Positions 18,148-30,614 are shown, counted from the first letter of the stretch. The stretch is 32,000 nt of DNA from Acaryochloris thomasi RCC1774 (GCF_003231495.1 NZ_PQWO01000018.1:60001-92000), one strand, 5' to 3'. Numbers and translations: made by a program. The notes: generated by a model not told the origin, from the sequence alone.

Positions 18148-19413
18148 TTAGTTGAGAGGTTGGGCTTGATGGGAAGCTATCTGCGCTCGACCTGCTTTTT
18201 TCGCTTGATAGAGGGCGGTATCGGTGGCTGCGATCAATGCTGGGACCGTTAGCTCAGCGGTGGGGACTAGGGTGGAGATGCCAATGCTCAGGGTGATGCG
18301 ATCGCTCACACTAGAAGATTTATGGACCAGTGCTTGCTGATCTAGATCTGCTCTCAACTTCTCTGCCACCGCCATCGCTCCCTCAGAATTTGTGTTGGGT
18401 AAGATGATGGCAAATTCTTCTCCCCCGTAGCGCGCTGCTAAATCTAACGGACGCCTGATGGCCCCGTCAATGGTTTGTGCCACCACCTGCAGGCAGTGAT
18501 CTCCCTGCAAATGACCGTAGGTGTCGTTGTACTGCTTGAAATAATCGATGTCACAGAGCATCAGGGTCAAAGCTTTCTGATCCCTCACTGCCTGCTTCCA
18601 AGACTGTTCAAGATACTCATCAAAGCGGCGTCGATTGGCCAGCTTTGTTAAGCCATCCTGATTGGCAGCCAATGCTAACTGGCGATTCAACTGATCGAGT
18701 TCTTGATTGGCAAGATCGAGGGCCTTATTGATTGCCTGTAGCTTTTCTTGGGTTTTAAGGCGGGCCTGGATTTCTGCTTCTAGCTGCTGATTCTTTGCCT
18801 CTAACTCTCGTGTGCGAATTTTGACGGACTCTTCTAGATTTCGGTTAAAATCCTGCAGCTTTTCATTGAGGCTGGCAATCTCCCGGCGATCTTCTTCAGC
18901 CGTGATAATGTCCCGGTAGGAACGGATCGCCGTAACTAATGTCGAGAATAATTTCTGCTGCGTTAGCTCAGTCTTGGTTCTATAGTCATTGATATCGTAC
19001 CCCTTGATGATTGAGATCTCAGGCACTTCGCCCGGCTGGCCGGTTCGCAGAATGATGCGCACAAATAAATTGTGCAAGTTCTCACGGATATATTTGACCA
19101 ACTCTAGACCGGCCTGACTGGTTTCCATGACCACGTCAAGGAGCAATACGGCAGTATCGGGGTGCTGGCTCAGCATCGCTTGAGCTTCTTGCCCAGAGTA
19201 AGCAGAGATGATTTCTAAGGTCCTGTTCTCAAAAGTAAAATTTTTGAGCGCAAGGCGGGTGACCTCATGTACCTGTCTTTCGTCATCGACAACAAGTATT
19301 TTCCAGGGCGTTTCGCTGTTGCTGGCAGCGGTGTCTTGGTCGTCCGAGAATAGAGGCTCATCTTCAAAGTCAAGGCGTTCATTGGCAGTGACTGAATCGT
19401 TAGACTGAGGCAT
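18148..19413 (-). CDS. response regulator-diguanylate cyclase (REC - coiled coil - GGDEF)
   Basis: The REC domain reads ILVVDDE...VLLLDVVME...DYRTK. A long heptad-rich linker follows (EKLQDFNRNLEE...LEAKNQQLEAEIQARLKTQEKLQ...). The GGDEF domain has RYGGEEFAIIL and an RPLD (RxxD) I-site five residues upstream. Confidence 0.92.
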   Translation of the reverse strand: MPQSNDSVTANERLDFEDEPLFSDDQDTAASNSETPWKILVVDDERQVHEVTRLALKNFTFENRTLEIISAYSGQEAQAMLSQHPDTAVLLLDVVMETSQAGLELVKYIRENLHNLFVRIILRTGQPGEVPEISIIKGYDINDYRTKTELTQQKLFSTLVTAIRSYRDIITAEEDRREIASLNEKLQDFNRNLEESVKIRTRELEAKNQQLEAEIQARLKTQEKLQAINKALDLANQELDQLNRQLALAANQDGLTKLANRRRFDEYLEQSWKQAVRDQKALTLMLCDIDYFKQYNDTYGHLQGDHCLQVVAQTIDGAIRRPLDLAARYGGEEFAIILPNTNSEGAMAVAEKLRADLDQQALVHKSSSVSDRITLSIGISTLVPTAELTVPALIAATDTALYQAKKAGRAQIASHQAQPLN

Positions 19414-20674
19414 GGGTTCCCTCGTCTGTAATCTGTAAGGGTAAGTTCAGAATAAACTTGCTTCCTGAGCCTAAGGTGCTTTCACACCGGATGGTGCCCC
19501 GAAGGTTTTGCGTCACAATGTTGTGAACAATATGGAGCCCCAAGCCACTACCGCCGCGCTCTCGAGCAGTTGTGAAGAACGGCTCAAAAATCTTTGCTTG
19601 GTGGCTCTCAGAGATACCACACCCATCATCGGCGTACTCTAAGATCACCTGCTCTTCTTGCTGATGCAATGAAAAACTGAGGTGCCCCTGCTCTCCTGGG
19701 CCATAGGCATGTCGTGTAGAGTTGATCACCAAGTTTGTCACAATCTGAGAAAGCGCTCCAGGATAACTTACCATCTTCAGCGAAATATCTCCGTCAACGG
19801 TCGTTTGGTGTTTTGTGGCCTTAAGGTGAGGCTCTAGGCTAGTGAGCACACTGTTGATATAGGGGATGATTGTAAAGGGTCGCTTCTCAAAACTGGTCTG
19901 ATCTACGGCAACTTGCTTGAAGCTTTGAATAAGCTGGGCTGCTCTGTCAAGGTTGCTCAATACGAGACGACTACTATCTGCTGCAGTTTCGAGATAGCCA
20001 GAAAGGGTTGAACGCTTTAAGCTACCTTGCTTATAGAGCTCGTCGAAGGCTTGTGTTTCATTCTGCAGCACGGACGCTGCCAAGAGGGCGTTGCCGACGG
20101 GAGTATTGATCTCATGGGCGACACCCGCTACAAGCTGGCCCAGGGCTGCCATTTTCTCCGACCGGATTAGCTCTGTCTGGGTTTCCTGTAGCTCCTGTAG
20201 GGTTTGGGTTAACTCACGGGTTCGTGCCTGTACCTTTTGCTCTAGCTGGTGCTGATACTCATAGAGCTGTTGCTCTTGGATATAGCTGTTGAGTGCTTCT
20301 CGCACAGTGAGCTGCAGGTCGGCAGGCTGCCAGGGTTTGGCGATATATCGATAGAGCTGAGCTGTATTAATCGCATTGGTTATCCCATCTACCCCTGCTT
20401 GCCCCGTTAGCATCACGGTTAGGGTTTTGGGTGAGAGTTCGTTGACCTGTCGCAGCACCTCGTCACCCTTTAGATCGGGCATCAGATAGTCAGCAATGAT
20501 GACAGCCACATTGCACTGGTCCTGCACTAAATCTTTGACAAGTTCAACGGCTTCTACGCCCCCAACTGCGGTTTCTAGCTCATAGCTCTCCTCAAAGACT
20601 TCAGAAAGCTCTCGCCGCAGACTATCAAGAACGGCGGGTTCGTCATCAACGCACACGATCACAGGTTTTGACAT
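19400..20674 (-). CDS. hybrid histidine kinase with N-terminal receiver (REC - HisKA - HATPase_c), no other sensor domain
   Basis: The REC domain reads VIVCVDDEPAVL...VIIADYLMPDLKG...IAKPW. The H-box is SEKMAALGQLVAGVAHEINTPVG, and the ATPase boxes are VTNLVINSTRHA, DDGCGI and GGSGLGLHIV. Its 3' end overlaps the GGDEF start by 14 nt. Confidence 0.92.
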   Translation of the reverse strand: MSKPVIVCVDDEPAVLDSLRRELSEVFEESYELETAVGGVEAVELVKDLVQDQCNVAVIIADYLMPDLKGDEVLRQVNELSPKTLTVMLTGQAGVDGITNAINTAQLYRYIAKPWQPADLQLTVREALNSYIQEQQLYEYQHQLEQKVQARTRELTQTLQELQETQTELIRSEKMAALGQLVAGVAHEINTPVGNALLAASVLQNETQAFDELYKQGSLKRSTLSGYLETAADSSRLVLSNLDRAAQLIQSFKQVAVDQTSFEKRPFTIIPYINSVLTSLEPHLKATKHQTTVDGDISLKMVSYPGALSQIVTNLVINSTRHAYGPGEQGHLSFSLHQQEEQVILEYADDGCGISESHQAKIFEPFFTTARERGGSGLGLHIVHNIVTQNLRGTIRCESTLGSGSKFILNLPLQITDEGTHASV

Positions 20675-20677
20675 GGA

Positions 20678-21070
20678 TTACTGGGGAAGGGCCGATTGAA
20701 TTGCTTGAATTAAGTCCTGCTCTTGCCAAGGCTTTGCTAGGCAGGTATGGAGGTTCGCTTGATCATGAGCTCGCTCAACCGCGTCGTGATCAGCTTGCCC
20801 TGTCAACATAATTTTAACCACGCCGGGGAAACGCTGATGGACGTCAATCAGGAGTTCGTCGCCTTTGGCTCCCGGCATTAGCCAATCAGACACGATCACT
20901 AATAGATCTGTCCCTTCGCCCTGGAGTTCTTCGATAATTTCTAGGGCTTCGCTGGCATTCTCTGCCGTTTCGTAGAGATAGGTATCATCGAAGGCTGTCT
21001 GGAGCTGTCGCAGTAGGCTATTGAGGATGATCGCTTCGTCATCAACGCAAAGAATCGCTAGTTTAGACAT
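20678..21070 (-). CDS. single-domain response regulator (CheY-like REC)
   Basis: 130 aa reading ILCVDDEAIILNSL...LVIVSDWLMPGAKG...IMLTGQAD...LAKPW. Its start overlaps the upstream stop by 8 nt, and its stop is 3 nt from the next start. Confidence 0.92.
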   Translation of the reverse strand: MSKLAILCVDDEAIILNSLLRQLQTAFDDTYLYETAENASEALEIIEELQGEGTDLLVIVSDWLMPGAKGDELLIDVHQRFPGVVKIMLTGQADHDAVERAHDQANLHTCLAKPWQEQDLIQAIQSALPQ

Positions 21071-24000
21071 GATGGTTTCCGGGTTGAGGATTCATGGGTA
21101 AAGACACGATGAAGGTCGTCTGCGAGGGTATCGATTCAAAGGTGATGGTGCCTTGATGCTTATCGATGATCTTTTTGACAATATCGAGTCCCAGTCCGCT
21201 GCCTTCGCCAGGGGGCTTGGTTGTAAAGAAAGGCTCAAAAATGTTCGCTTGGACCTCTGGAGGGATGCCACTACCGCTGTCGGTGATTTTTACCTGTGCG
21301 CTGCCGCCGAGTTCCTGCAGGCTGACCTCCAATGTGCCTTTGTAGTCCATGGCCTGTAGGGCATTGTGAATCAGATTCGTCCACACTTGGTTGAGTTCAT
21401 CGGCATAGCACTTTACGGGAGGGATGGCATCGAGGCTACGAATTACTGTGACGCCGTGCTTGATTTGGTTCTGGTAAAGGGTGAGGACGGCTTCAATGCC
21501 ATCTGTAAGGTTGACCGTCATCATTTCGCCGCTGTGGTCGTAGCGGGCGTAGGTTTTGAGGGCAAACACGATCTTGGCGGCGCGATCGCTAGCGCTGTTG
21601 ATGTCTCGGGCGCTCTCTTGCACCCGCGTAAATTGACGCGCCATTTTTAGAAGCGGTTCGCTACTCGGATTTGTCAGCAAGGGCAGTAGGGCATCGAGAT
21701 CGCTGTAGATGTTCAGGTCAATAAGCAAGCTAGCCAGATCGCTGGCGTTTGCAATTTCATGGTGGCCCAGTTGCTTGGCTAGGTTTTTGCGTGCTTGACG
21801 ACGCTCCCGCCCTGAGAGCTTGGTGGTTGACTGGAGCGATCGCTGGAGCAGGCTTTGAAACTGCTGCTCTTGTTCTGGGGAGAGGGTTCGAAAGAAGTGG
21901 GGGAGCGTTTGTAGGTTGTTGTGCAAGAAGTTATTGATGTACTGAATAGAGGAGCCAATGGCACCCAGGGGCGTATTAATCTCGTGGGCGATACCGGCAA
22001 TAAGCTGTCCCAGAGCGGCCATCTTTTCGGACTGAACCAGTTCTTGTTGAGTGAGCTGTAGTTCTTTGACGGTTTGAGAAAGGGTTTGGGTACGCTCATC
22101 GACTTTTTGCTCTAGGTTGGCGTAGAGACGAGCGTTGTCAATTGCGATCGCAACCTGTCCCGACAGCAGCTGCAGTAGTTCTAATCGATCGGGGGTAAAA
22201 GCACTGGTGGTTAAATTATTTTCCAGATAGACCATCCCACTGAGCTGTCCCAGGTTGAGGAGTGGCATACACAAAATTGACTGGGTCTGTCGCTCTTTGA
22301 TGTAGGGATCTTGAGTGAAATCACCGGCTTGACTGGCATGGGATAAAACCACGCTCTCCTGCGTGCGGTTGACGTAGTTCAATAGCGTCTGAGGAACTTG
22401 CCCCACTATCGGTGTGGACTGGAGGACGCTATAGGTCTCAGACTCGGTGTTGGCAGAGGCCTCAATCAGGAGACCGTCGCTGTTAAGAATGAGATAGCCA
22501 ACCTGGGCACCGGCATTGCGCACCAGGATTTGAATGAGAGTCATCAACAATTTGTCGAGGACAATCTCCGTTGAGATGGCCTGAGATGCCTGCAGAACAG
22601 TGGCTAAATCTAGCGATTGGCTGGTACGAACGGTGTGAGTTGCTGTGGAAGAAGAAGAAGGTCCCGATGCCGTTGTGAAGACTGCCTTAGAAAGGTTAGG
22701 GTACTGCTGTTCTAGCTGCTCGACCTTTGCGGTTGCCCCCCACCGGAAGTAGCCATAGTAGGCATCTTTCAAATAGACCTGGGCAATCTTGTCTCGATTT
22801 TGCCGCTGGTAGAACTGAGCTGCAAGTTCATTCGCAAGCGCTTCTTCTTGAGGGTAGTCGTGGGCTTGGGCCGATGTGATCGCATGATCATAGGCCACCC
22901 CTGCCTCTGCTATTTGTCCTAAACAGCGATAGCGTTCTGCTTCGACTAGCTCATATTTATGCCGGTGGTTCTCTGGGGCATGTTCAGCCCACTGCTGCAG
23001 CTGTTGCTGGTTGGCATTGACCTGCTCTAGTGCCTGCTGCTGCTCCGATTCATAAAGGTGCTCAAAACGGGCCAGCCGAGTTAAAGAGTCATAGAAGTTC
23101 AGCACGGCAATGGTGTAGGCGGCGGTCATTCCATCGGCGTTGTTTTCTGCCAACTGTGTACAGCTTAAAGCGGTTTCGTAGTCCGCCAGTAAATAGCAGA
23201 GCATTGCTTTATGCGTGTAGAAGAAGGCCAGAGCCAGTTTGTTGTCGGCACTCTCCACCGTGACCTCGGCTTCCTGGAGAAATTCTCCGTTGAGTTTGCT
23301 TAGGTCAGAGGCTTGGCCTCTGAGGTTTGCGAGGGTCTGCTGATAAATCTTCAGGTATAGATGGCAGGCGGCTTGCTTTAGGGTTGCGATCGCAAAATTA
23401 TAGGCAGCCATCCGAGTCGCTAACGCTTCTAGTTCTCGACCCGTGAGTAGACTGTGCATGGACTCCCAGCAGAGCGAGTAGCAGGCATATTCCACATCGC
23501 CTGTGTCCAAGCCGATTTGATAGCCGCTGTGAAGATCGGCAATCGTAGCGCTGAGCGGATCCTCCCAGTGACGCACAAACGCATTGAAGACAAACATTAC
23601 CCGACTTTTCGCCTGCTTGGCCTCGAACTTATCCACCACCTGCAGCGCCAAGCGCCCAAACTGGTAGCCCGAAGCAATATCGCCCACCGCCCCGCACAGC
23701 GTGATGCCGTAGCAGTCATAGGCAAAAGCCGAAGCTGCTGTATTGCCATACTCTAACGAGAGTCGAATTTGGGTGAGGTTGCTGAGAATAAACCGTTCAA
23801 AAGCGGCCTGATAGCCAGAAGATAAAATGTCCGATAAAATCTGCATTGCCGCCAGCTTTTCAGGATCCGTCATCGCAGGCAAATCAATCAAACCTTCGAT
23901 GGAGCGCTGATGCTGTAGAGCCTGAGTTCGCTGTAGCTCAAGCTGTAAATTTTCTGGCGTCGGTTCCGGGAACTGAATGCCTAGCTGCCCTAAAATTTCA

Positions 24001-26534
24001 AAACCAATATCGGTTGCTTCAAAATGTCGATTCTGAGACGAACAGGCCAGAATCTTCACCCGATAGACTTTGACTTTATCTAGAACACAGCGGGCCTTCT
24101 GCAGAATGATTGCCGTTAGCTGCTCTTGCTTTTCGTAGTCCTGATTCAGATAGGCCGCCTCACTGGCCGCCTCATAAAGCCCCAGGGCTAATTCATAGGT
24201 GTTTTGCCAGCCATCCGGTCCTAAAAGCGTCACCCCTGTTAGTAGATAGTTCATCGCAGCTTGGTAAGCGGTTGCCGACTTCGCCTTCTGACCCGCCTGA
24301 AAATTGAGCTGCGCTAACTGCTGTCGTTCAGCCGGTTCAGAGATCAGATCGAGTGCTTGATTGAGATGATCCACGACCTCAAAGATGCGGTCTGCCAGAC
24401 CTTCTTGGGTCACGCCGTCTCTGAGCAGACGACCAATACGGAGATGAACCGGTGCTTTTTGTTCTGGGGTAATCAGGGCATAGGCAGCCTGCTGGATGCG
24501 GTCATGGCCGAAGCGAAAGCGTTCAATTGTTAAATCTGCTGTCAATTCAGACAGGGGAATCACTAAACCACACTGAATCGTCGGCTTGAGATCAGCAAAA
24601 ACGGTTTTGAAAGACTTCTGTTGAATAATGGCAAGGGTCGCCAGATCAAACTGAGCGCCGACGCAGGCCGCCAGCCGCAGTCCTTCTTGGGTGGCGCTTG
24701 ACAGCTTCTGGAGTTTGCCAATCAGCAGCTCAATGACGTTATCGGTCAAATCTTGGGCCTGAATCTGCTCCATGTCCCATTCCCAGAGGCGGGATGCTTC
24801 ATTAAACTGCAGCAGTCTTTCACTGTGGAGACTCTTGAGAAATTCGTTGACGAAAAAGGGATTGCCTTCTGTTTTCTGAAGCACTAATTCCGCGAGGGGA
24901 TCTAGTTCAGCCTGACTGTGCTGCAGTGTATCCGTGATTAGCTGACTGAGGTGCGTCAGCGATAGGGGGGCCAGGGTAATCGTATTGACTGTCACACTCT
25001 GGGTCTCAAAGTGGTTTAACAGGCTCATTAATGGATGCGCCGCACTGACTTCATTGTCACGGTAGGCACCGATCACAAGCAGCGATCGCATCTTACTATC
25101 GGTCATCATTCGCTGCATCAGCTTCAGGCTGGCAGAATCAGCCCACTGCAAATCGTCTAGGAACAGCACTAGCGGATGCTCGGGATCACAGAAAACCCGA
25201 ATGAAACTTTGAAAAACCAGATTGAAGCGGTTTTGAGCCTCTGTTGGACCCAGCTCTGGTACCGGGGGCTGCTTTCCTGTAATCAGAGCTATTTCAGGGA
25301 TCACATCAATGACCACCTGACCGTTTGGTCCCAAAGCTGCTAGCAAGCGCTGCCGCCACTGGGCTAGCTGGGTCTCGCTTTCCGTTAAAAGCTGTTTGGC
25401 AAGGCTGCGAAAGGCAGCAATCACTGCGGAGTAGGGCACATCCCGCTGAAACTGGTCATATTTACCGGCGATGAAGTAGCCGCGCTTCTCGGTAATGGGC
25501 TTATGGACCTCCGCCACTAGAGAAGACTTGCCAATCCCGGAATACCCTGCCACCAGCATTAATTCGCTGGTGCTGGTGGATTGGCTGATGCGCTCGAAAG
25601 CCGCCAGCAATATTGCTTTCTCGGCCTCTCGCCCATAGAGCTTTTGTGGAATCTGGAAGCGACCGGATAAATCTTGAGTGCCGAGGACGAAAGGTGCAAT
25701 CTTACCTGTGCTGCGTAACTGCTCTCGGCAGTTTTCCAAATCAGCCTGGAGGCCCGCCGCGTTCTGATAGCGGTCCTCAGCCGTTTTAGCCATCAGCTTC
25801 AGCGTCAGATTAGACAAGACCTGCGGCACCGCAAGATTAATTTGATGCGGTGGCTTGGGTTGATGGGCAATATGACAGTGAACCAGTGCCAAAGCATCTT
25901 CGGTCGGGAATGGTAACTGCCCCGTCAGCAGCTCATAGAATGTAATGCCGAGAGAATAGAAGTCCGTTCGGTAGTCTAGGGAGCGATTCATCCGTCCGGT
26001 TTGCTCCGGTGACAGATAGGCCAGCGTGCCTTCTAATACCCGTGGGTTTTTGAGGGTGGGGTTCTCACGGCTCAACTGGGTTGAAATCCCAAAGTCGATG
26101 ATTTTAAGCTGTCCTGAGGCTGGGTTGACAATGATATTGCTGGGATTAATATCTTTGTGAATGACGTTACGGCTGTGAATATGCCCCAGGATTTCGACAA
26201 TCTTGAGAGCTAAATCTAGAAACTCCTCCAGCGGCACTGCCTGCCCTTGGAACCACTCTTTGAGGGATTGCCCTCCAATGTCTTCGAGCACCATCGCTAA
26301 AGTGCGCTGATAGGGTTCTAACCCATAAACCTGAACTGTACCTTCGATGTCAAGATTGCTCGTGATTTCATATTCTTGGCGATAGCGGGTCAGTTCGGCC
26401 GAGGTGGGATAGTCTTCTTTCAAGATTTTGATAATGACAGGCTGATCAGGGTCGCCTCGATGACCCCGATAGACTAATGAATTCGCGCTCTCATAAATGT
26501 GCTTAGTCAAATTACAGCCGACAACACCCGTCAT
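21063..26534 (-). CDS. multidomain Ser/Thr protein kinase - P-loop NTPase (AAA_16/STAND-like) - TPR-like helical region - GAF - histidine kinase (HstK-like dual kinase)
   Basis: The STK motifs are VIIKILK (beta3 Lys), HKDINPSNIIV (catalytic loop), IDFGIS and AYLSPEQ. Walker A is VAGYSGIGKSSLV and Walker B is LVLFLDDLQWAD. About 700 aa of helical repeats follow. The GAF region ends ...LCMPLLNLGQLSGMVYLEN. The H-box is SEKMAALGQLIAGIAHEINTPLG, and the ATPase boxes are WTNLIHNALQAM, DSGSGI and EGSGLGLDIV. Confidence 0.93.
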   Translation of the reverse strand: MTGVVGCNLTKHIYESANSLVYRGHRGDPDQPVIIKILKEDYPTSAELTRYRQEYEITSNLDIEGTVQVYGLEPYQRTLAMVLEDIGGQSLKEWFQGQAVPLEEFLDLALKIVEILGHIHSRNVIHKDINPSNIIVNPASGQLKIIDFGISTQLSRENPTLKNPRVLEGTLAYLSPEQTGRMNRSLDYRTDFYSLGITFYELLTGQLPFPTEDALALVHCHIAHQPKPPHQINLAVPQVLSNLTLKLMAKTAEDRYQNAAGLQADLENCREQLRSTGKIAPFVLGTQDLSGRFQIPQKLYGREAEKAILLAAFERISQSTSTSELMLVAGYSGIGKSSLVAEVHKPITEKRGYFIAGKYDQFQRDVPYSAVIAAFRSLAKQLLTESETQLAQWRQRLLAALGPNGQVVIDVIPEIALITGKQPPVPELGPTEAQNRFNLVFQSFIRVFCDPEHPLVLFLDDLQWADSASLKLMQRMMTDSKMRSLLVIGAYRDNEVSAAHPLMSLLNHFETQSVTVNTITLAPLSLTHLSQLITDTLQHSQAELDPLAELVLQKTEGNPFFVNEFLKSLHSERLLQFNEASRLWEWDMEQIQAQDLTDNVIELLIGKLQKLSSATQEGLRLAACVGAQFDLATLAIIQQKSFKTVFADLKPTIQCGLVIPLSELTADLTIERFRFGHDRIQQAAYALITPEQKAPVHLRIGRLLRDGVTQEGLADRIFEVVDHLNQALDLISEPAERQQLAQLNFQAGQKAKSATAYQAAMNYLLTGVTLLGPDGWQNTYELALGLYEAASEAAYLNQDYEKQEQLTAIILQKARCVLDKVKVYRVKILACSSQNRHFEATDIGFEILGQLGIQFPEPTPENLQLELQRTQALQHQRSIEGLIDLPAMTDPEKLAAMQILSDILSSGYQAAFERFILSNLTQIRLSLEYGNTAASAFAYDCYGITLCGAVGDIASGYQFGRLALQVVDKFEAKQAKSRVMFVFNAFVRHWEDPLSATIADLHSGYQIGLDTGDVEYACYSLCWESMHSLLTGRELEALATRMAAYNFAIATLKQAACHLYLKIYQQTLANLRGQASDLSKLNGEFLQEAEVTVESADNKLALAFFYTHKAMLCYLLADYETALSCTQLAENNADGMTAAYTIAVLNFYDSLTRLARFEHLYESEQQQALEQVNANQQQLQQWAEHAPENHRHKYELVEAERYRCLGQIAEAGVAYDHAITSAQAHDYPQEEALANELAAQFYQRQNRDKIAQVYLKDAYYGYFRWGATAKVEQLEQQYPNLSKAVFTTASGPSSSSTATHTVRTSQSLDLATVLQASQAISTEIVLDKLLMTLIQILVRNAGAQVGYLILNSDGLLIEASANTESETYSVLQSTPIVGQVPQTLLNYVNRTQESVVLSHASQAGDFTQDPYIKERQTQSILCMPLLNLGQLSGMVYLENNLTTSAFTPDRLELLQLLSGQVAIAIDNARLYANLEQKVDERTQTLSQTVKELQLTQQELVQSEKMAALGQLIAGIAHEINTPLGAIGSSIQYINNFLHNNLQTLPHFFRTLSPEQEQQFQSLLQRSLQSTTKLSGRERRQARKNLAKQLGHHEIANASDLASLLIDLNIYSDLDALLPLLTNPSSEPLLKMARQFTRVQESARDINSASDRAAKIVFALKTYARYDHSGEMMTVNLTDGIEAVLTLYQNQIKHGVTVIRSLDAIPPVKCYADELNQVWTNLIHNALQAMDYKGTLEVSLQELGGSAQVKITDSGSGIPPEVQANIFEPFFTTKPPGEGSGLGLDIVKKIIDKHQGTITFESIPSQTTFIVSLPMNPQPGNHHV

Positions 26535-26889
26535 TCATCTGTCCTTAAACGCCGAAAGAGTATCTGGCCTCAGCAAAGCTATGGATATTTGGCGTTGAGA
26601 TCGCAGTCTTTTTGATCAGACTTAGCTAAACTCTCCGTGCAAATACTGAATTAGCAGGCCAGCTCTATAGTGGACGGCTGAAGCAGCAAACCTGACATCT
26701 AAGTCTACTTTTGTGATGTTGCCATGACGAAGTATTGAGCTGAATCTGTAAATTCTCTCAATTCGTTGGCGTTACGGCGATCAAGAGGGACTGAATAAAC
26801 GGCATGCTGCCCGTCAGAAACGACAGTCTGTTAAACAAACAAGCGACCTTTACAACTGTTTGAATTCGGGGAACAGAGACAGGGGAAAT

Positions 26890-26993
26890 TTTTCGATCAA
26901 GATTGCTCAGAGACTGGGAACACTGAGTTTGAGAAACGGCACCTCAACGATTTTGACGATTGTGAGATTCACAAGACCCTAGTTTTCGATCAA
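26890..26993. promoter_or_regulatory. candidate operator-like direct repeats (TTTTCGATCAA x2) in the divergent kinase-operon/LOX intergenic region
   Basis: The identical 11-mer TTTTCGATCAA occurs at 26890-26900 and 26983-26993, 93 bp apart, 48-151 bp upstream of the LOX ATG. A third CGATCAAG lies at 26778-26785. The evidence is sequence repetition only. Confidence 0.25.
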
Positions 26994-27040
26994 AGATGTG
27001 CCTCTGCTTTCTTCTGTTTCCCAACGTGAGTAACTGATAC

Positions 27041-29029
27041 ATGCCCTCATCTTTTACAGCCCTGAATACTGAGTCTCTGAATGTTGTTCAGCCACCTGTG
27101 CCGGCTCTAAAGAAAACAGAGGCTCATCCTGAGCCTGTCCCCCACGCTCTCAGGACTGCTCGCAAAAAATATAAGTACAACTACGCCCATATTGCGCCAG
27201 TCGCGATGGTAGACAAGCTGCCGCGCGAGGAGAGACCCAGTCTGGTCTGGTGGAGAAAGGTGATTCGGGTCATGCTCGAAATCTTTATCAACGCCATCGT
27301 TAGCAAGCGAGGTCATGTTGAAGAAGTACAGGCCCGTCACCATGTCGCCCACCTCGTCAGACAAACGGTGATCGATATCTTTCAGCAGGCAGATTTCAAA
27401 ACGAAACTTCGGCTGGGTTGGCATCTGCTCAGAGCAGTTCCCCAACTCCTTTGGAAGGGATTCAGGTTGGGACTGCATGAGTGGGAAGATCTGGTTCTGA
27501 GTCTGATTTCAGAGGTCGAGAAAGATATTCTGCTGGCGCTCCACGGCGGCGTCAAGGCTCGCGTTGATCAAGACCGCCACTGTGTGACAGCCACGAGTCT
27601 GGAGGACTACAACAGGCAGTTTGCCACGATTGCACTACCTGCGATCGCAACTCATTTCCAAGAAGATGAATACTTCGCCTACCTACGGATAGCGGGTCCC
27701 AATCCTACGATGCTTGAGCAGGTCCGCGTTTTGTTTGGCGACATCCTCAGCCAAAAATTTCCGGTGACAAACGATCACTATCAAGCCGTCATGGGCACTG
27801 ATGATTCCCTGGAGAAAGCTTTAGAAGAGAGCCGCCTCTACATTGCGGACTACGCCATTCTGGCAGGAGCTATCAATGGCACCTATCCTGGCACCCACCC
27901 CAAATATATTGAAGCGCCTCAGGCGCTATTTGCTGTCCCTCGGGGCGGTTCCGCATCACGAAACCTGCGGCCCATTGCGATTCAGTGTGGTCAGGTTTCG
28001 GGTACGAACGTACCAATTGTGACGCCCTCGACGAACGAATCCGAGCGATACGCTTGGGAAATGGCCAAGGCTGTGGTTCAGGTGGCCGATAGCAACTACC
28101 ACGAAGCCATTGCCCACTTAGGTCGCACGCATCTGTTTATTGGCCCCTTTGCGATCGCAACCCATCGGCAACTTCTGCCGGAGCATCCCCTTAGTGTTCT
28201 ACTGCGCCCGCACTTTGAGGGCATGCTCAACATCAATGATGGGGCTCAAAATCTGCTTATGGCTCCCCGAGGTGGCGTTGATAAGAATTTGGCGGCTACG
28301 ATTGACTGCGCGCGCGCAGCGACTGTCGCTGGCTTGCAGAGCTACGGCTTCAATAGCGCCATGCTGCCCAAACGGCTTGAGCAGCGCGGTGTTGCCGATC
28401 TAGAGGCATTCCCGGTCTATCCTTACCGCGATGATGCCCTTTTACTGTGGGATGCCATCAAAGACTGGGTTGCGGCTTACCTCGGTCTTCATTACCAAGA
28501 CGATACCGCAGTCCAGCAGGATCAGGCGCTCCAGAACTGGGCAGCAGAGCTGATTGCCTTTGATGGCGGTCGCGTCGTTGACTTCGGTGAAGACGGTGAG
28601 ATTCGGACTCTCTCATACCTGATTGATGCGGTGACGTTAATCGTTTTTACTGCCAGCGCCCAACATGCTGCTGTCAACTTTCCGCAGGGAGATGTGATGA
28701 CCTACGCTCCGGCGATGCCTCTGGCAGGATATGCTCCGGCTCATCCGCTCACCACCGCTAGCGAAGCAGATTATTTTGAGCAGCTTCCGCCGCTGCATCA
28801 GGCACAGGGACAGCTTGAGCTGACCTATCTGCTAGGACAGGTCTATCACACGGTACTGGGTCAGTATGACTTGGGCTGGTTTCGTGACGGGCAAGAGCAG
28901 AGCGCCCTCCAAGACTTTCAAGAGAGATTGGTGGAGATTGAAGATGCGATCGCAACCCGTAACCAAACCCGTCCCTATCCCTACTGCTATCTGCAGCCTT
29001 CCAAAATCCCCCAAAGCATCAATATTTAA
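27041..29029 (+). CDS. lipoxygenase (non-heme iron fatty-acid dioxygenase), bacterial type without obvious PLAT domain
   Basis: The LOX motifs are YAWEMAKAVVQVADSNYHEAIAHLGRTHL (WxxAK; His354-x4-His359), SAQHAAVNFPQ (His542-x3-Asn546) and a C-terminal ...KIPQSINI ending in Ile, the C-terminal carboxylate iron ligand. An in-frame TGA lies 6 nt upstream of the ATG. Confidence 0.9.
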   Translation: MPSSFTALNTESLNVVQPPVPALKKTEAHPEPVPHALRTARKKYKYNYAHIAPVAMVDKLPREERPSLVWWRKVIRVMLEIFINAIVSKRGHVEEVQARHHVAHLVRQTVIDIFQQADFKTKLRLGWHLLRAVPQLLWKGFRLGLHEWEDLVLSLISEVEKDILLALHGGVKARVDQDRHCVTATSLEDYNRQFATIALPAIATHFQEDEYFAYLRIAGPNPTMLEQVRVLFGDILSQKFPVTNDHYQAVMGTDDSLEKALEESRLYIADYAILAGAINGTYPGTHPKYIEAPQALFAVPRGGSASRNLRPIAIQCGQVSGTNVPIVTPSTNESERYAWEMAKAVVQVADSNYHEAIAHLGRTHLFIGPFAIATHRQLLPEHPLSVLLRPHFEGMLNINDGAQNLLMAPRGGVDKNLAATIDCARAATVAGLQSYGFNSAMLPKRLEQRGVADLEAFPVYPYRDDALLLWDAIKDWVAAYLGLHYQDDTAVQQDQALQNWAAELIAFDGGRVVDFGEDGEIRTLSYLIDAVTLIVFTASAQHAAVNFPQGDVMTYAPAMPLAGYAPAHPLTTASEADYFEQLPPLHQAQGQLELTYLLGQVYHTVLGQYDLGWFRDGQEQSALQDFQERLVEIEDAIATRNQTRPYPYCYLQPSKIPQSINI

Positions 29030-29066
29030 CCCCTAGTTCCCTACCCACCCCCAGAGGACAATTTTC

Positions 29067-30614
29067 ATGGTCTTGGACCTTTCCACCTCCAGTCAAGCCC
29101 CCCGGCAATCGCTTCGCGCGCTAATCTGGAACCGTTTTCTGCAACCCCTACTGCAGAGAATATTCAGATGGCTGACCGCTTCTAAAGCCCAGCCCTTCGA
29201 AGATATCCCAGGGCCGACCCCGATCTTTCCGACTGGGAACGTTTTAGACTTTCAAAAAGATCCCACCTGGGAAGTCTTGGGTAACTACGCCCAACAATAC
29301 GGAAACGTCGCTCGCTTCTGGATGCTGTTTCGACCCTGCCTAGCCGTTAACGATCCAAAGCTAATTCACCAAGTTCTTTCAGGGGTGGGGGAACAGTCAC
29401 CGGAAGTCGCAGAAAGCCGCTGTCCCCTGCACAATAACCCAATCTACAAGTTCTATAAAAACCAGCCGCGCAAAGCGCTGCGGCCCATGCTGACCGACAC
29501 CAATCCCTTTGAAGCTGCAGCTGCAGATGCTCACTGGAAAGATTTGAAGCAGAACCATCCTTTCAGCATGGATTACTTTGATGACTGGCTCGGGTCGCAG
29601 ATCGAACCCCTCCATGCCTTCATAGAAACAAGAGCGACAGAACTGGTCGCAGCCTCTAACCAAGCGGGTGAATTATCGGCCTATGACGCCATTCAAAAGC
29701 TGACCTTTGACGGATTTTCGTTAGCAACCGTGGGGCAAGTTTTCCCGGACGAAGTTTTTGAGCAGTTTAACTCCATGTGCCAGACCGGTACGAGTCGGAT
29801 GACGCGCTCGACCTTGGCAACATGGCTGATTCCAGAAAAGCCGTGGGATCGTACCTATCGCAAAGTAAGCAAAGCCTGGTTCAACCGCTTTGAACAGATC
29901 GTCAGCTTAGAAGAAGCGCCAGCCAACTCGCTGCTAGGCTGGGTGCTTCGCAAAGGCGGCACTAATTTTGAGGCCGAAAAGCTGCGTAATTTTTGTGCCG
30001 GTGTCTATCCCGGTGGAGCCGTCTCTACCCCCAGCGGTATTACGTCAGCGCTCCATCTTCTTCATCAGCACCCAGAAACTCTGGCCGCTCTCAAAGCAGA
30101 AGTCAAAGACTTCTTTGCTGGTCCCCTGACGTTAGAGCGACTGGAAGGCTGCACTCAGCTTGATCAGGTGATGCGTGAATCGCTACGGCTCTGGCCTGCC
30201 GTCCCGTTTTTCCTACGGACGGTTAATCAAGGTGGTGCCGAATTAGCAGGGCACTCCATTCCAGCAGGTACCCCCATTTTTATGAGTAACTGGTCGCTGC
30301 AGCGCCTTAGCGATCATTGGTCAGAGCCAGAGACTTTCAACCCAGCCCGATGGGATGCAGAGACCTGCCGTCAGAACGACTGGGGAAGTGACTACTTCTT
30401 TCCCTTTGGACGGGGCGATCGGGCCTGCATTGGTCAATATTTTGCACGTTATTTTATGAAGCTTGTGTTAGCGGTCTTAGTCTCAAAGTTTGGAGTGACC
30501 TTTGGTGATCAATCCCCTGAGCAAGAGTTCTTCTTCGGCGTCGCGGTTCCGCGCCAGTTGAAGGCACAATTTATTTACTCGAGCAAAGATTTGCCAAAAT
30601 ATTCTGGGGATTGA
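29067..30614 (+). CDS. cytochrome P450
   Basis: The Cys-ligand loop is FPFGRGDRACIGQYFA, the K-helix ExxR is VMRESLRLWP, and the PERF-like motif is ETFNPARWD. The I-helix region is CAGVYPGGAVSTPSGITSALHLLHQHPE. AGAGGA lies 8 nt upstream of the ATG, and the gene starts 37 nt after the LOX stop. Confidence 0.92.
   Translation: MVLDLSTSSQAPRQSLRALIWNRFLQPLLQRIFRWLTASKAQPFEDIPGPTPIFPTGNVLDFQKDPTWEVLGNYAQQYGNVARFWMLFRPCLAVNDPKLIHQVLSGVGEQSPEVAESRCPLHNNPIYKFYKNQPRKALRPMLTDTNPFEAAAADAHWKDLKQNHPFSMDYFDDWLGSQIEPLHAFIETRATELVAASNQAGELSAYDAIQKLTFDGFSLATVGQVFPDEVFEQFNSMCQTGTSRMTRSTLATWLIPEKPWDRTYRKVSKAWFNRFEQIVSLEEAPANSLLGWVLRKGGTNFEAEKLRNFCAGVYPGGAVSTPSGITSALHLLHQHPETLAALKAEVKDFFAGPLTLERLEGCTQLDQVMRESLRLWPAVPFFLRTVNQGGAELAGHSIPAGTPIFMSNWSLQRLSDHWSEPETFNPARWDAETCRQNDWGSDYFFPFGRGDRACIGQYFARYFMKLVLAVLVSKFGVTFGDQSPEQEFFFGVAVPRQLKAQFIYSSKDLPKYSGD

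What the first reader, a model, noticed from the sequence alone, without database searches (positions are those of the whole stretch)
27041..30614. Lipoxygenase + cytochrome P450 two-gene cassette: candidate uncharacterised cyanobacterial oxylipin pathway
The 662-aa ORF has the full lipoxygenase iron-ligand set: HEAIAH, HAAVN and a C-terminal Ile. A 515-aa P450 follows 37 nt downstream on the same strand, with an AGAGGA Shine-Dalgarno-like element. No terminator-like hairpin is visible between the two genes. Known routes for metabolising LOX hydroperoxides are these:
- plant CYP74 P450s (AOS/HPL/DES);
- catalase-related AOS fused to LOX in corals and some cyanobacteria;
- dioxygenase-P450 fusions in fungi.
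This P450 has an ordinary-length Cys loop (FPFGRGDRACIG), without the insertion typical of CYP74. A discrete bacterial LOX-P450 operon of this kind is not an arrangement I know to be characterised. It could make allene oxides, epoxy-alcohols, divinyl ethers, diols or chain-cleavage products. LOX carries three HIP1 sites (27641, 28151, 28946), which argues for long residence in a cyanobacterial genome rather than recent transfer.
Basis: partly seen in the sequence, partly recalled or inferred. Interest (0 to 1): 0.78.

Follow-up and report, generated by a model that had tools for sequence, protein, structure and literature searches.

The report
Conserved bacterial lipoxygenase–P450 oxylipin operon
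A lipoxygenase gene and an unusual cytochrome P450 gene sit together as an operon in this cyanobacterium, and the same pairing (sometimes fused into one protein) recurs in five bacterial phyla, pointing to an unstudied bacterial pathway for making oxidised-fatty-acid molecules.

Summary
There is a 662-aa lipoxygenase (27041-29029) with a full iron-ligand set. A 515-aa P450 (29067-30614) lies 37 nt downstream behind AGAGGA, with no terminator between them. Three HIP1 sites lie in the LOX. The source is Acaryochloris thomasi RCC1774.

- The P450 founds a compact family of about 133 cluster representatives. It is not CYP74. Its nearest folds are fatty-acid P450s (BM3, CYP184A1).
- No family member keeps the canonical I-helix acid-alcohol pair (0/133 D/E, against 47/66 in outgroup P450s).
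- In 27 of 41 species from Cyanobacteria, Planctomycetota, Leptospiraceae, Myxococcota and an alphaproteobacterium, this P450 lies beside a LOX. There are four gene arrangements and at least three LOX classes.
- Natural fusions exist: P450-PLAT-LOX, P450-LOX and P450-catalase-type-AOS. None is to a redox partner.
- LOX and P450 co-diverge (Mantel r 0.90).

Best reading: LOX makes a fatty-acid hydroperoxide and the P450 rearranges it without O2 activation. This is inferred, not shown. A conventional monooxygenase role is the main rival.

A Ser/Thr-kinase-STAND protein is a third recurrent neighbour, which hints at signalling. I found no prior description.

The parts
27041..29029 (+). Lipoxygenase, 662 aa, P. 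aeruginosa-LoxA type. It has an N-terminal helical extension and no PLAT domain. Iron ligands are H354, H359, H542, N546 and I662. Ala402 sits at the Coffa position, which predicts S-stereospecificity.
   Evidence: Closest solved structures are 8x8f (E 4e-112), P. aeruginosa LOX 4g32/4rpe (E 2e-111, aligned over query 44-662) and Cyanothece CspLOX2 5med (E 1e-98). The I-x3-A-x3-L clamp spacing matches Ile416/Ala420/Leu424 of the P. aeruginosa LOX as tabulated in PMC5437038.
29030..29066 (+). 37-nt intergenic spacer with a Shine-Dalgarno-like AGAGGA (29053-29058) 8 nt before the P450 ATG. No terminator-like hairpin is present. Co-transcription is inferred.
   Evidence: Equally short or overlapping junctions occur in other lineages: an apparent LOX/P450 ORF overlap in Qipengyuania L047 (tblastn hits overlap) and in the P450-cAOS/LOX pair of L055, about 3 nt in L028, and 20 nt in Myxococcota.
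29067..30614 (+). Cytochrome P450, 515 aa, of an uncharacterised LOX-associated family. PGP hinge 48-50, I-helix G316-G317-A-V319-S320-T (no acid, and Ser in place of Thr), ExxR 371-374, PxRW 426-429, haem ligand C454. Amphipathic N-terminal helix 11-44, no transmembrane segment.
26535..27040 (.). 506-nt divergent intergenic region between the kinase operon and LOX, presumed to hold both promoters. It contains TGGGAACACT (26915-26924), the only well conserved block (8 of 10 columns identical in all five sequences, one substitution each in L012 and L032) among five Acaryochloris-group loci.
   Evidence: The promoter consensus scan was uninformative.
21063..26534 (-). 1823-aa Ser/Thr kinase - AAA_16 (STAND NTPase) - GAF - HisKA - HATPase_c protein. 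It is the third recurrent neighbour of this P450 family. A functional link is inferred, not shown.
   Evidence: domains. (Pkinase-AAA_16 proteins next to the P450 in 22 of 42 loci and in L055).
20678..21070 (-). Response-regulator receiver, 130 aa. It overlaps the kinase stop by 8 nt and is part of the kinase operon.
   Evidence: The same gene order is found in L011.
19400..20674 (-). Hybrid receiver-histidine kinase, 424 aa, in the kinase operon.
18148..19413 (-). Receiver-GGDEF diguanylate cyclase, 421 aa, the last gene of the kinase operon.

Best explanation
This is a two-gene oxylipin operon.

Step 1 (family assignment shown, chemistry inferred from the family): the lipoxygenase dioxygenates a polyunsaturated fatty acid to a conjugated hydroperoxide. 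This is probably an S-hydroperoxide such as 13S-HPOD(T)E, because Ala402 occupies the Coffa position and the closest characterised enzyme is the P. aeruginosa 15S/13S-LOX.

Step 2 (inferred): the co-translated P450 takes that hydroperoxide as its substrate and rearranges, dehydrates or cleaves it, giving an epoxy-alcohol, allene oxide, divinyl ether, diol or aldehyde-type product. It would use the peroxide O-O bond itself and need no O2 activation, NAD(P)H or redox partner. That is the same logic as plant CYP74, fungal dioxygenase-P450 fusions and catalase-type AOS-LOX fusions, but it would have evolved independently in a BM3/CYP184-like fatty-acid P450 scaffold.

Step 3 (speculative): the product acts as a signal connected to the neighbouring Ser/Thr-kinase/STAND - His-kinase - GGDEF cascade.

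My confidence that LOX and P450 work in one pathway is about 0.9. My confidence in the hydroperoxide-rearranging, redox-partner-independent mechanism is about 0.5. The confidence value given for this explanation refers to the mechanism.
For: **Coupling**
- In one-genome-per-species data, 27 of 41 species carrying this P450 have a LOX within 1.5 kb, usually within a few hundred nt. Three of the 14 exceptions are contig-edge cases. LOX genes occur in under 1% of bacterial genomes (PMC6612559), so chance adjacency is negligible.
- Four arrangements occur: LOX->P450 (Acaryochloris, Gemmatales, Kuenenia, Qipengyuania, Myxococcota); P450->LOX (Leptospiraceae, Anabaena sp. 4-3, Cyanothece BG0011); divergent (J06639_1); and tandem P450-LOX-P450-LOX (L022).
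- The partner LOXs belong to different classes: PA-LOX-like; CspLOX1-like 9R-LOX (5ek8, E = 0); and animal-type PLAT-LOX.
- Only LOX and a kinase recur among neighbours.
- Natural fusions exist. P0227 is P450-PLAT-LOX with a continuous ORF. P0268 is P450-LOX on 4 contigs from independent samples. P0237 is P450 plus a domain homologous to coral catalase-type AOS (E 3.6e-19), followed by a LOX and an OYE/OPR-type reductase.
- LOX and P450 distance matrices correlate (Mantel r 0.90, 0 of 5000 permutations).
- A LOX remnant lies upstream of the P450 in L011.

**Mechanism**
- 0 of 133 family members have Asp/Glu at the I-helix acid site (F/V/I/Y instead) and none has Thr (Ser in 116). By contrast, 47 of 66 (D/E) and 49 of 66 (Thr) outgroup P450s found by the same profile have them.
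- Nearest folds are fatty-acid-binding P450s: BM3 (TM 0.81) and CYP184A1 with oleic acid (model pLDDT 88).
- No ferredoxin or reductase gene recurs nearby, and none of the four long family members is fused to a reductase.
- In every characterised natural dioxygenase-haem fusion (coral cAOS-LOX, fungal DOX-P450), the haem domain converts the dioxygenase's hydroperoxide. This is established knowledge, not tested here.
Against: - No biochemical data exist.
- All closest solved relatives by sequence and fold are O2/NAD(P)H-dependent monooxygenases.
- The Cys loop is fully canonical, including the Phe and Arg typical of redox-partner-dependent P450s.
- Ser can substitute for Thr in O2 activation, and some true monooxygenases (for example CYP51, from general knowledge) lack the acid.
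- No catalytic Asn like that of CYP74 is conserved in the I-helix.
- A separate catalase-type AOS-like gene or domain co-occurs with the P450 and LOX in Kuenenia and in P0237. There, hydroperoxide conversion could belong to that protein and the P450 could do something else.
- Eleven informative loci (Synechococcus MAGs, Schlesneria and others) keep the P450 without an adjacent LOX. Whether a LOX lies elsewhere in those genomes was not checked.
- Bacterial P450s often use unlinked redox partners, so their absence nearby is weak evidence.
Confidence: 0.5

Rival explanations
1. The P450 is a conventional ferredoxin/NAD(P)H-dependent monooxygenase working in the same oxylipin pathway. It would hydroxylate or epoxidise the polyunsaturated fatty acid before LOX, or the LOX product after reduction, giving di- or tri-oxygenated fatty acids, as in mammalian P450+LOX routes to resolvin-type lipids.
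For: The nearest sequence and fold relatives are all monooxygenases that hydroxylate lipids: BM3, CYP4B1, CYP184A1, CYP97, CYP46, CYP24. The haem-binding loop, ExxR and PxRW are canonical. Ser is invariant at the Thr site, where it could still assist O2 activation. A catalase-type AOS-like partner is also present in Kuenenia and in the P0237 fusion, which leaves the P450 free for another step. Cyanobacteria have abundant ferredoxins (general knowledge).
Against: The acid of the acid-alcohol pair is completely absent in 133 of 133 members and replaced by bulky hydrophobic residues. No redox partner gene recurs nearby and none is fused. Fusions join the P450 directly to a LOX, and the characterised natural dioxygenase-haem fusions I know of all couple a dioxygenase to a hydroperoxide-converting haem domain.
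Confidence: 0.3
2. The P450 is a hydroperoxide-consuming protective enzyme or peroxygenase rather than a biosynthetic isomerase. It would use the LOX hydroperoxide as an oxygen donor to oxidise a second molecule, or simply detoxify lipid hydroperoxides, so no specific signalling product is made.
For: The same sequence features apply as for the best explanation: no acid-alcohol pair and no redox partner. The partner LOXs have different regio- and stereospecificities (CspLOX1-type is 9R per PMC5437038; PA-LOX type is S; the myxobacterial type is 12S/11 per PMC5760719). That suits a generic hydroperoxide user.
Against: A cell would not need to keep a LOX and a detoxifier of its product as a co-inherited or fused unit. 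Co-divergence and fusion suggest a channelled, specific reaction. Accessory genes in some clusters (FA desaturase, lipases, OYE/OPR-like reductase) look biosynthetic.
Confidence: 0.1
3. LOX and P450 have no catalytic relationship. The adjacency would reflect shared ancestry or co-transfer of a genomic islet, or co-regulation for unrelated functions.
For: The Mantel correlation could partly reflect shared species phylogeny. 11 informative loci lack an adjacent LOX, and the closest LOX relatives in Calothrix and Okeania have no P450 neighbour.
Against: The pairing persists through gene-order changes, strand inversions and replacement of the LOX by unrelated LOX classes in five phyla. Independent fusions to LOX and to a catalase-type AOS exist.
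Confidence: 0.05

Closest known systems
Plant LOX -> CYP74 pathway (allene oxide synthase, hydroperoxide lyase, divinyl ether synthase, epoxyalcohol synthase) and the wider CYP74 clan
   Same: A lipoxygenase is paired with a P450 that lacks the canonical I-helix acid-alcohol pair. The proposed logic is the same: the P450 uses the fatty-acid hydroperoxide itself and needs no O2 or redox partner.
   Different: This P450 is not a CYP74-clan member. Its Cys loop is canonical FxxGxRxCxG without the CYP74 insertion. No conserved I-helix Asn is present. Its closest solved relatives are CYP24/97/3A/46/102/4B, with no CYP74 in the top 60. The genes are operonic or fused in bacteria, whereas in plants they are unlinked. 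Its activity is untested.
Catalase-related allene oxide synthase-LOX fusion proteins (Plexaura homomalla 1U5U/3DY5; the cyanobacteria Acaryochloris marina and Anabaena PCC 7120)
   Same: A haem protein is physically or genetically coupled to a LOX to convert its hydroperoxide, and this occurs in the same genus (Acaryochloris). One member of this P450 family (P0237) is itself fused to a cAOS-like domain, and Kuenenia has cAOS-like -> LOX -> P450.
   Different: In the window the haem partner is a thiolate-ligated P450, not a catalase fold. The genes are separate rather than fused. The LOX is PA-LOX-like, not the mini-LOX or 8R-LOX type.
Fungal dioxygenase-P450 fusion enzymes (PpoA / linoleate diol synthases / DOX-AOS)
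   Same: A fatty-acid dioxygenase is coupled to a P450 domain that isomerises the hydroperoxide without a redox partner. Natural fusions exist here too (P0227, P0268).
   Different: In fungi the dioxygenase is a haem peroxidase/COX-like domain, whereas here it is a non-haem-iron LOX. The domain order in the bacterial fusions is P450-LOX, not DOX-P450. The I-helix motif here is GG-x-(F/V/I/Y)-S, not the amide-containing motif that I recall for the fungal enzymes; that point is from memory and was not tested.
Pseudomonas aeruginosa LoxA (PA-LOX, 4g32/4rpe/5ir4) and Cyanothece LOXs
   Same: The window LOX is a clear relative (E 2e-111, aligned from the N-terminal helical domain to the C-terminus). 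It has the same ligand set, Ala at the Coffa site, and no PLAT domain.
   Different: No obvious signal peptide is visible in the window LOX by inspection of its N-terminus, whereas I recall PA-LOX as secreted. The window LOX is operonic with a P450. I know of no P450 partner for PA-LOX and did not check.
Fatty-acid-binding P450 monooxygenases CYP102A1 (BM3) and CYP184A1
   Same: They are the closest folds (TM about 0.8) and among the closest sequences (7wzl is the top phmmer hit), and CYP184A1 was crystallised with oleic acid. This supports a fatty-acid-shaped substrate.
   Different: Identity is only about 20%. Those enzymes keep the Glu/Asp-Thr pair and need reductase electrons, whereas this family has lost the pair entirely and is never fused to a reductase.
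Myxococcus xanthus LOX pair MXAN_1744/MXAN_1745 (hepoxilin/trioxilin biosynthesis, PMC5760719)
   Same: M. stipitatus, Corallococcus and other Myxococcota carry the same divergent LOX | PLAT-LOX pair with this P450 family immediately downstream.
   Different: That study tested only two distant P450s (MXAN_0683 and MXAN_2304) as 'TXA synthase' candidates and found them inactive. The LOX-adjacent P450 has not been examined, and I could not verify that it is present in M. xanthus DK1622 itself.

Membership tests
Lipoxygenase (PF00305) | Significant match to the LOX catalytic domain profile | tested here: met
   207 bits against a cut-off of 23.6, covering residues 193-643. E about 1e-111 to solved bacterial LOXs.
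Lipoxygenase (PF00305) | Non-haem iron ligand set: His-x4-His, His-x3-Asn/His and the C-terminal Ile carboxylate | tested here: met
   H354/H359, H542/N546 and I662.
Lipoxygenase, bacterial PA-LOX subtype | N-terminal alpha-helical extension instead of a PLAT beta-barrel | tested here: met
   No PLAT hit in Pfam. The alignment to P. aeruginosa LOX 4rpe runs from query residue 44 to chain residue 82 onward.
Lipoxygenase | Dioxygenase activity on polyunsaturated fatty acids; regio- and stereospecificity | not testable with these tools
   Only a prediction is possible: Ala402 at the Coffa position predicts an S-product.
Cytochrome P450 superfamily (PF00067) | Profile match, Cys-ligand loop FxxGxRxCxG, ExxR and PERF-type motif | tested here: met
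   163 bits against a cut-off of 22.8. FPFGRGDRACIG 445-456, ESLR 371-374, PARW 426-429. AF2 model pLDDT 88 with a P450 fold.
Canonical O2-activating P450 monooxygenases | I-helix (A/G)G-x-(D/E)-T acid-alcohol pair | tested here: not met
   The window protein has GGAVST. 0 of 133 family members have D/E and 0 of 133 have Thr, against 47 of 66 and 49 of 66 in outgroup P450s.
CYP74 clan (AOS/HPL/DES/EAS) | Modified haem-binding loop with an insertion that lacks the FxxGxRxCxG signature | tested here: not met
   The window has a canonical-length FPFGRGDRACIG. The CYP74 signature itself is taken from established knowledge.
CYP74 clan (AOS/HPL/DES/EAS) | Sequence or fold affinity to CYP74 structures | tested here: not met
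   No CYP74, CYP8A or CYP5A appears among the best 60 of 387 PDB sequence hits of the family profile or among the best 50 fold matches. An explicit phylogeny with CYP74 sequences was not run.
CYP74 clan (AOS/HPL/DES/EAS) | Turnover of fatty-acid hydroperoxides without O2 or NADPH | not testable with these tools
   This needs enzymology.
Catalase-related AOS-LOX fusion | A catalase-fold haem domain coupled to a LOX | tested here: not met
   The window partner is a P450. A cAOS-like domain is found only in relatives: the P0237 tail (E 3.6e-19 to 1u5u) and the Kuenenia loci.
Fungal DOX-P450 fusion (Ppo / linoleate diol synthase) | An N-terminal haem peroxidase-type dioxygenase fused to a C-terminal P450 | tested here: not met
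   The window has separate genes and a non-haem LOX. The long P450 hits I first suspected of being such fusions are tandem P450 gene models.
Self-sufficient P450-reductase fusions (CYP102 type) | A fused FMN/FAD reductase domain | tested here: not met
   The window protein is 515 aa. The only family members over 600 aa are fused to LOX, a cAOS-like domain or cNMP-binding domains.

The most novel reading that the evidence does not exclude
The LOX-P450 module, with catalase-type AOS, desaturase, lipase and OYE/OPR-like reductase added in some lineages, is a bacterial oxylipin signal-generating system. Its P450 family would have evolved hydroperoxide-rearranging chemistry independently of CYP74. 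Its product would be sensed by, or controlled through, the co-conserved Ser/Thr-kinase-STAND (AAA_16) protein. In Acaryochloris that protein feeds a His-kinase phosphorelay ending in a GGDEF diguanylate cyclase. This would amount to a prokaryotic counterpart of eicosanoid or jasmonate signalling, wired to c-di-GMP.
Probability: 0.25. Interest if true: 0.9.

Novelty: new variant of a known kind. Interest (0 to 1): 0.74.

Why it matters
What bacterial lipoxygenases are for is a long-standing open question. They are rare, patchily distributed and enriched in multicellular or host-associated bacteria, and have mostly been studied as isolated biocatalysts. A dedicated, co-inherited and sometimes fused P450 partner makes the downstream chemistry directly testable with two clonable genes from a cultured organism; Acaryochloris marina MBIC11017 has the same operon.

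If the P450 rearranges hydroperoxides, it would be a further, independent origin of this chemistry, after CYP74, CYP5/8, fungal DOX-CYP and catalase-type AOS. It would also provide a simple sequence hallmark, GG-x-(F/V/I/Y)-S in the I-helix, for mining. New regio- and stereo-defined oxylipins such as epoxy-alcohols, allene oxides and divinyl ethers are of biocatalytic interest.

The recurrent Ser/Thr-kinase/STAND neighbour offers a first concrete handle on oxylipin signalling inside bacteria.

Tried and rejected
1. **CYP74-clan membership** is rejected on the Cys loop, the I-helix and the lists of nearest relatives.
2. **The many 900-1600-aa hits of the exhaustive profile search as dioxygenase-P450 fusions.** Pfam shows nearly all are tandem P450 gene models whose scores add up. 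Only P0227, P0268, P0237 and P0233 are real family members with extra domains.
3. **The P0237 C-terminal tail as a CspLOX1-type LOX.** BLASTP found no similarity and Pfam found nothing. It proved to be catalase-type-AOS-like.
4. **More relatives of the P0227 fusion.** A metagenome scan found none, so that particular fusion rests on one 3.9-kb contig.
5. **Amine-oxidase genes near LOX in the window and in Calothrix L052 as conserved synteny.** They share 22% identity over a partial alignment, so they are not orthologs.
6. **Promoter and terminator consensus scans.** Counts were at shuffle level and are uninformative apart from the empty 37-nt gap. There are no inverted repeats in the divergent intergenic region.
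7. **Active-site pocket analysis of the AF2 model.** The coordinates are not exposed to scripts.
8. **Literature.** Subscription-only papers are not covered.
9. **NCBIfam.** There is no equivalog for either protein, and 'pentalenene oxygenase' is a mis-annotation.

Full report
**1. Observation**

The window carries two same-strand ORFs exactly where stated: 27041..29029 (662 aa) and 29067..30614 (515 aa).
- Pfam assigns them to Lipoxygenase (PF00305, 207 bits, E 5.5e-61) and p450 (PF00067, 163 bits, E 1.1e-47).
- The LOX has the complete iron-ligand set: H354 and H359 in HEAIAH, H542 and N546 in HAAVN, and the C-terminal I662.
- The gap between the genes is 37 nt. AGAGGA (29053-29058) lies 8 nt before the P450 ATG, and no terminator-like hairpin lies in the gap.
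- HIP1 octamers occur at 27641, 28151 and 28946. The window holds 18, against 0.55 expected.
- GC and GC3 of both genes match the neighbouring genes.
- Both proteins are 100% identical to proteins of Acaryochloris thomasi RCC1774. There the P450 is annotated 'pentalenene oxygenase'. This is a mis-annotation, because the NCBIfam score is 79 bits against a cut-off of 800.

**2. The two proteins**

*The LOX* is of the Pseudomonas aeruginosa LoxA type. Its closest solved relatives are 8x8f (E 4e-112), PA-LOX 4g32/4rpe (E about 2e-111, aligned from the N-terminal helical extension onward) and Cyanothece CspLOX2 (E 1e-98). It has no PLAT domain. Its active-site clamp reads I398-x3-A402-x3-L406. This matches Ile416/Ala420/Leu424 of the P. 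aeruginosa enzyme as tabulated in PMC5437038. By the Coffa rule, which is established knowledge, Ala predicts an S-hydroperoxide.

*The P450* has a canonical haem loop (FPFGRGDRACIG, C454), ExxR and PxRW. It is only about 20% identical to any solved P450.
- By single-sequence search, only its C-terminal half matches: CYP184A1 7wzl, CYP97A3, CYP46A1, CYP3A4 and CYP4B1, with E 1e-21 to 1e-24.
- A 26-sequence family profile matches CYP24A1, CYP97A3, CYP3A, CYP46A1, CYP102 and CYP4B1 at full length, with E 1e-46 to 1e-32. No CYP74, CYP8A or CYP5A is among the best 60.
- An AlphaFold2 model (pLDDT 88, pTM 0.88) is closest to P450 BM3 (TM 0.81), CYP97C1, CYP184A1 crystallised with oleic acid, and CYP3A4.

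So the scaffold is that of a fatty-acid-binding P450 of the monooxygenase type, not a CYP74-clan enzyme.

**3. A family hallmark**

In the I-helix, the usual (A/G)G-x-(D/E)-T motif reads G316-G317-A-V319-S320-T. I built an HMM from the family alignment and aligned to it every protein returned by the homolog search and by the exhaustive profile search.
- Among 133 family members (best domain at least 250 bits), none has Asp or Glu at the acid site. The residue there is F, V, I or Y in the large majority. None has Thr at the alcohol site, which is Ser in 116.
- Among the 66 outgroup P450s retrieved by the same profile, 47 have D/E and 49 have Thr.
- The haem cysteine is kept in 123 of 133, and most of the rest are fragments.

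The family is therefore defined by loss of the canonical proton-relay pair that P450s use to activate O2. P450s that rearrange peroxides also lack this canonical pair (CYP74, prostacyclin synthase, fungal DOX-CYP). So do a few true monooxygenases such as CYP51. Both points are general knowledge.

**4. Gene neighbourhood**

The family is small. The word-indexed search found 52 clusters. The exhaustive HMMER search of 1.84 billion representatives found roughly 55 core representatives above 350 bits.

A scan of one genome per species returned 41 species. They are Cyanobacteria (several Acaryochloris including the A. marina MBIC11017 chromosome, Synechococcus MAGs, Anabaena sp. 4-3, Cyanothece sp. 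BG0011), Planctomycetota (Gemmatales, Schlesneria, Zavarzinella, Kuenenia), Leptospiraceae, Myxococcota and the alphaproteobacterium Qipengyuania.

I used tblastn with queries from all the LOX classes encountered. 27 of the 41 have a LOX within 1.5 kb of the P450, usually within a few hundred bases. Three of the 14 exceptions are uninformative because the P450 is at a contig edge or on a 2-kb contig. LOX genes occur in fewer than 1% of bacterial genomes (PMC6612559), so this cannot be chance.

The arrangements differ:
- LOX->P450 in Acaryochloris, Gemmatales, Kuenenia, Qipengyuania (overlapping ORFs) and Myxococcota.
- P450->LOX in Leptospiraceae, Anabaena sp. 4-3 and Cyanothece BG0011.
- Divergent in cyanobacterium J06639_1.
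- P450-LOX-P450-LOX in Leptospirales L022.

The partner LOX also differs:
- PA-LOX-like in most.
- A close homolog of 5EK8 in Anabaena and Cyanothece BG0011 (E = 0). I recall 5EK8 as the structure of the 9R-LOX CspLOX1 of Cyanothece PCC 8801; the PDB entry itself is titled only 'Lipoxygenase'.
- An animal-type PLAT-LOX, closest to coral 8R-LOX and human 5-LOX, in Myxococcota.

Clustering all flanking ORFs shows that only three families recur across loci: the P450, LOX (25 loci) and a Pkinase-AAA_16 kinase (22 loci). No ferredoxin or reductase recurs.

The dependency runs one way. The nearest LOX relatives in Calothrix and Okeania (about 52% identity) have no P450 neighbour. Within the PA-LOX-type pairs, LOX and P450 distance matrices correlate strongly (Mantel r = 0.90, 0 of 5000 permutations, 19 loci). 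This is consistent with inheritance as a unit.

In Acaryochloridaceae MAG OTE_25 (L011) the LOX is missing. However, 24 codons matching LOX residues 601-624 lie immediately upstream of the P450 (local alignment score 75; a shorter stretch of the same region scored 51 against a shuffle maximum of 45). The LOX was therefore deleted secondarily.

**5. Fusions**

Four family members exceed 600 aa.
- **P0227** (1200 aa) is P450-PLAT-Lipoxygenase. It has the family I-helix (FGGALST), a normal Cys loop and a full LOX ligand set. The junction is one continuous reading frame with a linker of about 20 residues. It rests on a single 3.9-kb contig, and a metagenome scan found no close relatives.
- **P0268** (935 aa) is a P450 plus a divergent LOX domain. 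It occurs on four contigs from independent ENA and JGI samples, downstream of another LOX.
- **P0237** (1019 aa) is a P450, a multi-pass hydrophobic region and a C-terminal domain homologous to the catalase-related allene oxide synthase of the coral AOS-LOX protein (1u5u, E 3.6e-19). Its locus on a 4.3-Mb contig reads FA desaturase ... Pkinase-AAA_16 (-) | P450-cAOS (+) -> LOX (overlapping stop/start) -> Old-Yellow-Enzyme/OPR-type reductase.
- **P0233** has a Cys-less P450 domain, a second P450 and two cNMP-binding domains.

No family member is fused to a reductase. The Kuenenia loci carry a separate cAOS-like gene, arranged cAOS-like -> LOX -> P450. Other clusters add a fatty-acid desaturase and a GDSL lipase (M. 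stipitatus) or a Tle1-like lipase (Anabaena sp. 4-3).

**6. How it most likely works**

*Shown:* the two genes are a LOX and a P450, arranged as an operon. The P450 family is tied to LOX genetically, physically (by fusion) and evolutionarily in many lineages. It lacks the O2-activation pair, and it has a fatty-acid-P450 fold.

*Inferred:* the LOX produces a fatty-acid hydroperoxide, probably an S-hydroperoxide. The P450 uses that hydroperoxide directly, splitting the O-O bond at the haem and rearranging the substrate, without NAD(P)H or redox partners. This parallels CYP74, fungal DOX-P450 and catalase-type AOS-LOX systems.

I put about 0.9 on pathway coupling and about 0.5 on this mechanism.

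The main rival (0.3) is a conventional ferredoxin-dependent monooxygenase acting before or after the LOX. That rival is favoured by the monooxygenase-type relatives, by the fully canonical haem loop, by Ser at the Thr site, and by the co-occurrence of a separate cAOS-like protein in some clusters. Such a protein could be the hydroperoxide converter there. Minor rivals are a peroxygenase or detoxifying role (0.1) and no catalytic link (0.05).

**7. The kinase**

Immediately upstream and divergent from the LOX lies an operon:
- a 1823-aa Pkinase-AAA_16-GAF-HisKA-HATPase protein (21063-26534),
- a receiver (20678-21070),
- a receiver-His-kinase (19400-20674),
- a receiver-GGDEF (18148-19413).

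The same four genes precede the P450 in L011. Pkinase-AAA_16 proteins flank the P450 as follows:
- in the Synechococcus MAGs, on the same strand with no LOX;
- in Gemmatales and relatives, as LOX->P450->kinase on one strand;
- in Schlesneria, convergent;
- in Kuenenia;
- in Leptospirales L022, at 35% identity over 1465 residues;
- in L055, divergent as in the window.

I could not calculate a genome-wide null for these abundant kinases, so the link is a lead, not a finding. It suggests that the oxylipin product and a Ser/Thr-kinase/STAND sensor, which here feeds c-di-GMP synthesis, belong together.

**8. Comparison with what is known, and novelty**

The kind of system is well known: a fatty-acid dioxygenase plus a haem enzyme that converts its hydroperoxide. 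This P450 fails the tested defining features of CYP74 (haem loop, relatives). The window pair is neither a catalase-LOX fusion nor a DOX-P450 fusion.

- The 2026 review of bacterial LOXs contains no mention of an operon or gene cluster and cites P450s only generically.
- The M. xanthus hepoxilin study characterised the LOX pair but tested only two unlinked P450s.
- The Cyanothece LOX paper I checked (PMC5437038), the bioinformatic LOX survey and the cyanobacterial P450 survey do not mention the pairing.
- Term searches for LOX-P450 fusions found nothing relevant.

Subscription-only literature could not be searched. I classify the finding as a new variant of a known kind.

**9. Verdict**

This is a real, well-supported and apparently undescribed bacterial LOX-P450 module with a distinctive P450 family. 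The catalytic mechanism is unproven but directly testable with two genes. Interest: 0.74.

Noticed in passing
window 18148-26534 (- strand): A four-gene signalling operon is transcribed divergently from the LOX: Pkinase-AAA_16-GAF-HisKA-HATPase (1823 aa), a receiver, a receiver-His-kinase and a receiver-GGDEF. Pkinase-AAA_16 proteins are the only neighbour besides LOX that recurs around this P450 family (22 of 42 loci, several phyla and orientations). No genome-wide null could be computed.
   Followed up: partly
L011 7561-8060 (Acaryochloridaceae MAG OTE_25): The LOX is missing between the kinase operon and the P450. A 24-codon remnant matching LOX residues 601-624, and a weaker match to residues 1-25, lies just upstream of the P450. 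This indicates secondary internal deletion of the LOX. Here the kinase operon is on the same strand as the P450.
   Followed up: yes
window 26915-26924: TGGGAACACT, about 116 nt upstream of the LOX start, is the only well conserved block (8 of 10 columns identical in all five, one substitution each in L012 and L032) in the otherwise poorly alignable kinase-LOX intergenic regions of five Acaryochloris-group genomes. It is a candidate regulatory element.
   Followed up: partly
L037 and L038 (Candidatus Kuenenia MAGs): A cAOS-like gene, a LOX and this P450 lie in a row in anammox bacteria, which are strict anaerobes, although LOX needs O2. A Pkinase-AAA_16 gene lies a few kb downstream.
   Followed up: no
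L055 1-14400 (4.3-Mb metagenome contig): This is the largest cluster seen: FA desaturase, Pkinase-AAA_16 (divergent), the P450-membrane-cAOS-like fusion, a LOX with overlapping stop/start, then an Old-Yellow-Enzyme/12-oxophytodienoate-reductase-type flavoprotein. The set of parts is reminiscent of the plant jasmonate pathway.
   Followed up: partly
L022 8001-14584 (Leptospirales MAG): A tandem duplication, P450-LOX-P450-LOX, is preceded by a kinase that is 35% identical to the window kinase over 1465 residues.
   Followed up: no
L003 (Myxococcus stipitatus DSM 14675) and L002/L018/L042: Lipid-supply genes sit beside the pair. A fatty-acid desaturase and a GDSL lipase flank LOX|PLAT-LOX->P450 in M. 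stipitatus. A Tle1-like phospholipase-family gene lies directly upstream of P450->CspLOX1-type LOX in Anabaena sp. 4-3 and Cyanothece sp. BG0011.
   Followed up: partly
P0233 (1239 aa, Logan contig): A family-type P450 domain has lost its haem cysteine (FGVGPQSGFG). It is followed by a second P450 domain and two cyclic-nucleotide-binding domains.
   Followed up: no
window 29067-30614: The public record names this protein 'Pentalenene oxygenase'. The NCBIfam model for that enzyme scores 79 bits against a cut-off of 800, so the name is an annotation artefact.
   Followed up: yes
window 30784-31383 (+): A 199-aa Uma2-family putative restriction endonuclease (PF05685, E 2e-33) follows the P450. 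It is not conserved next to the pair in other loci. A gene encoding a HisF-like fragment lies at 31425-31967 on the minus strand (identified by eye, not tested).
   Followed up: no
window 27041-30614: All three HIP1 sites of the cassette are in the LOX and none is in the 1.5-kb P450 gene. About 0.9 would be expected from the window's density, so this is not significant.
   Followed up: yes
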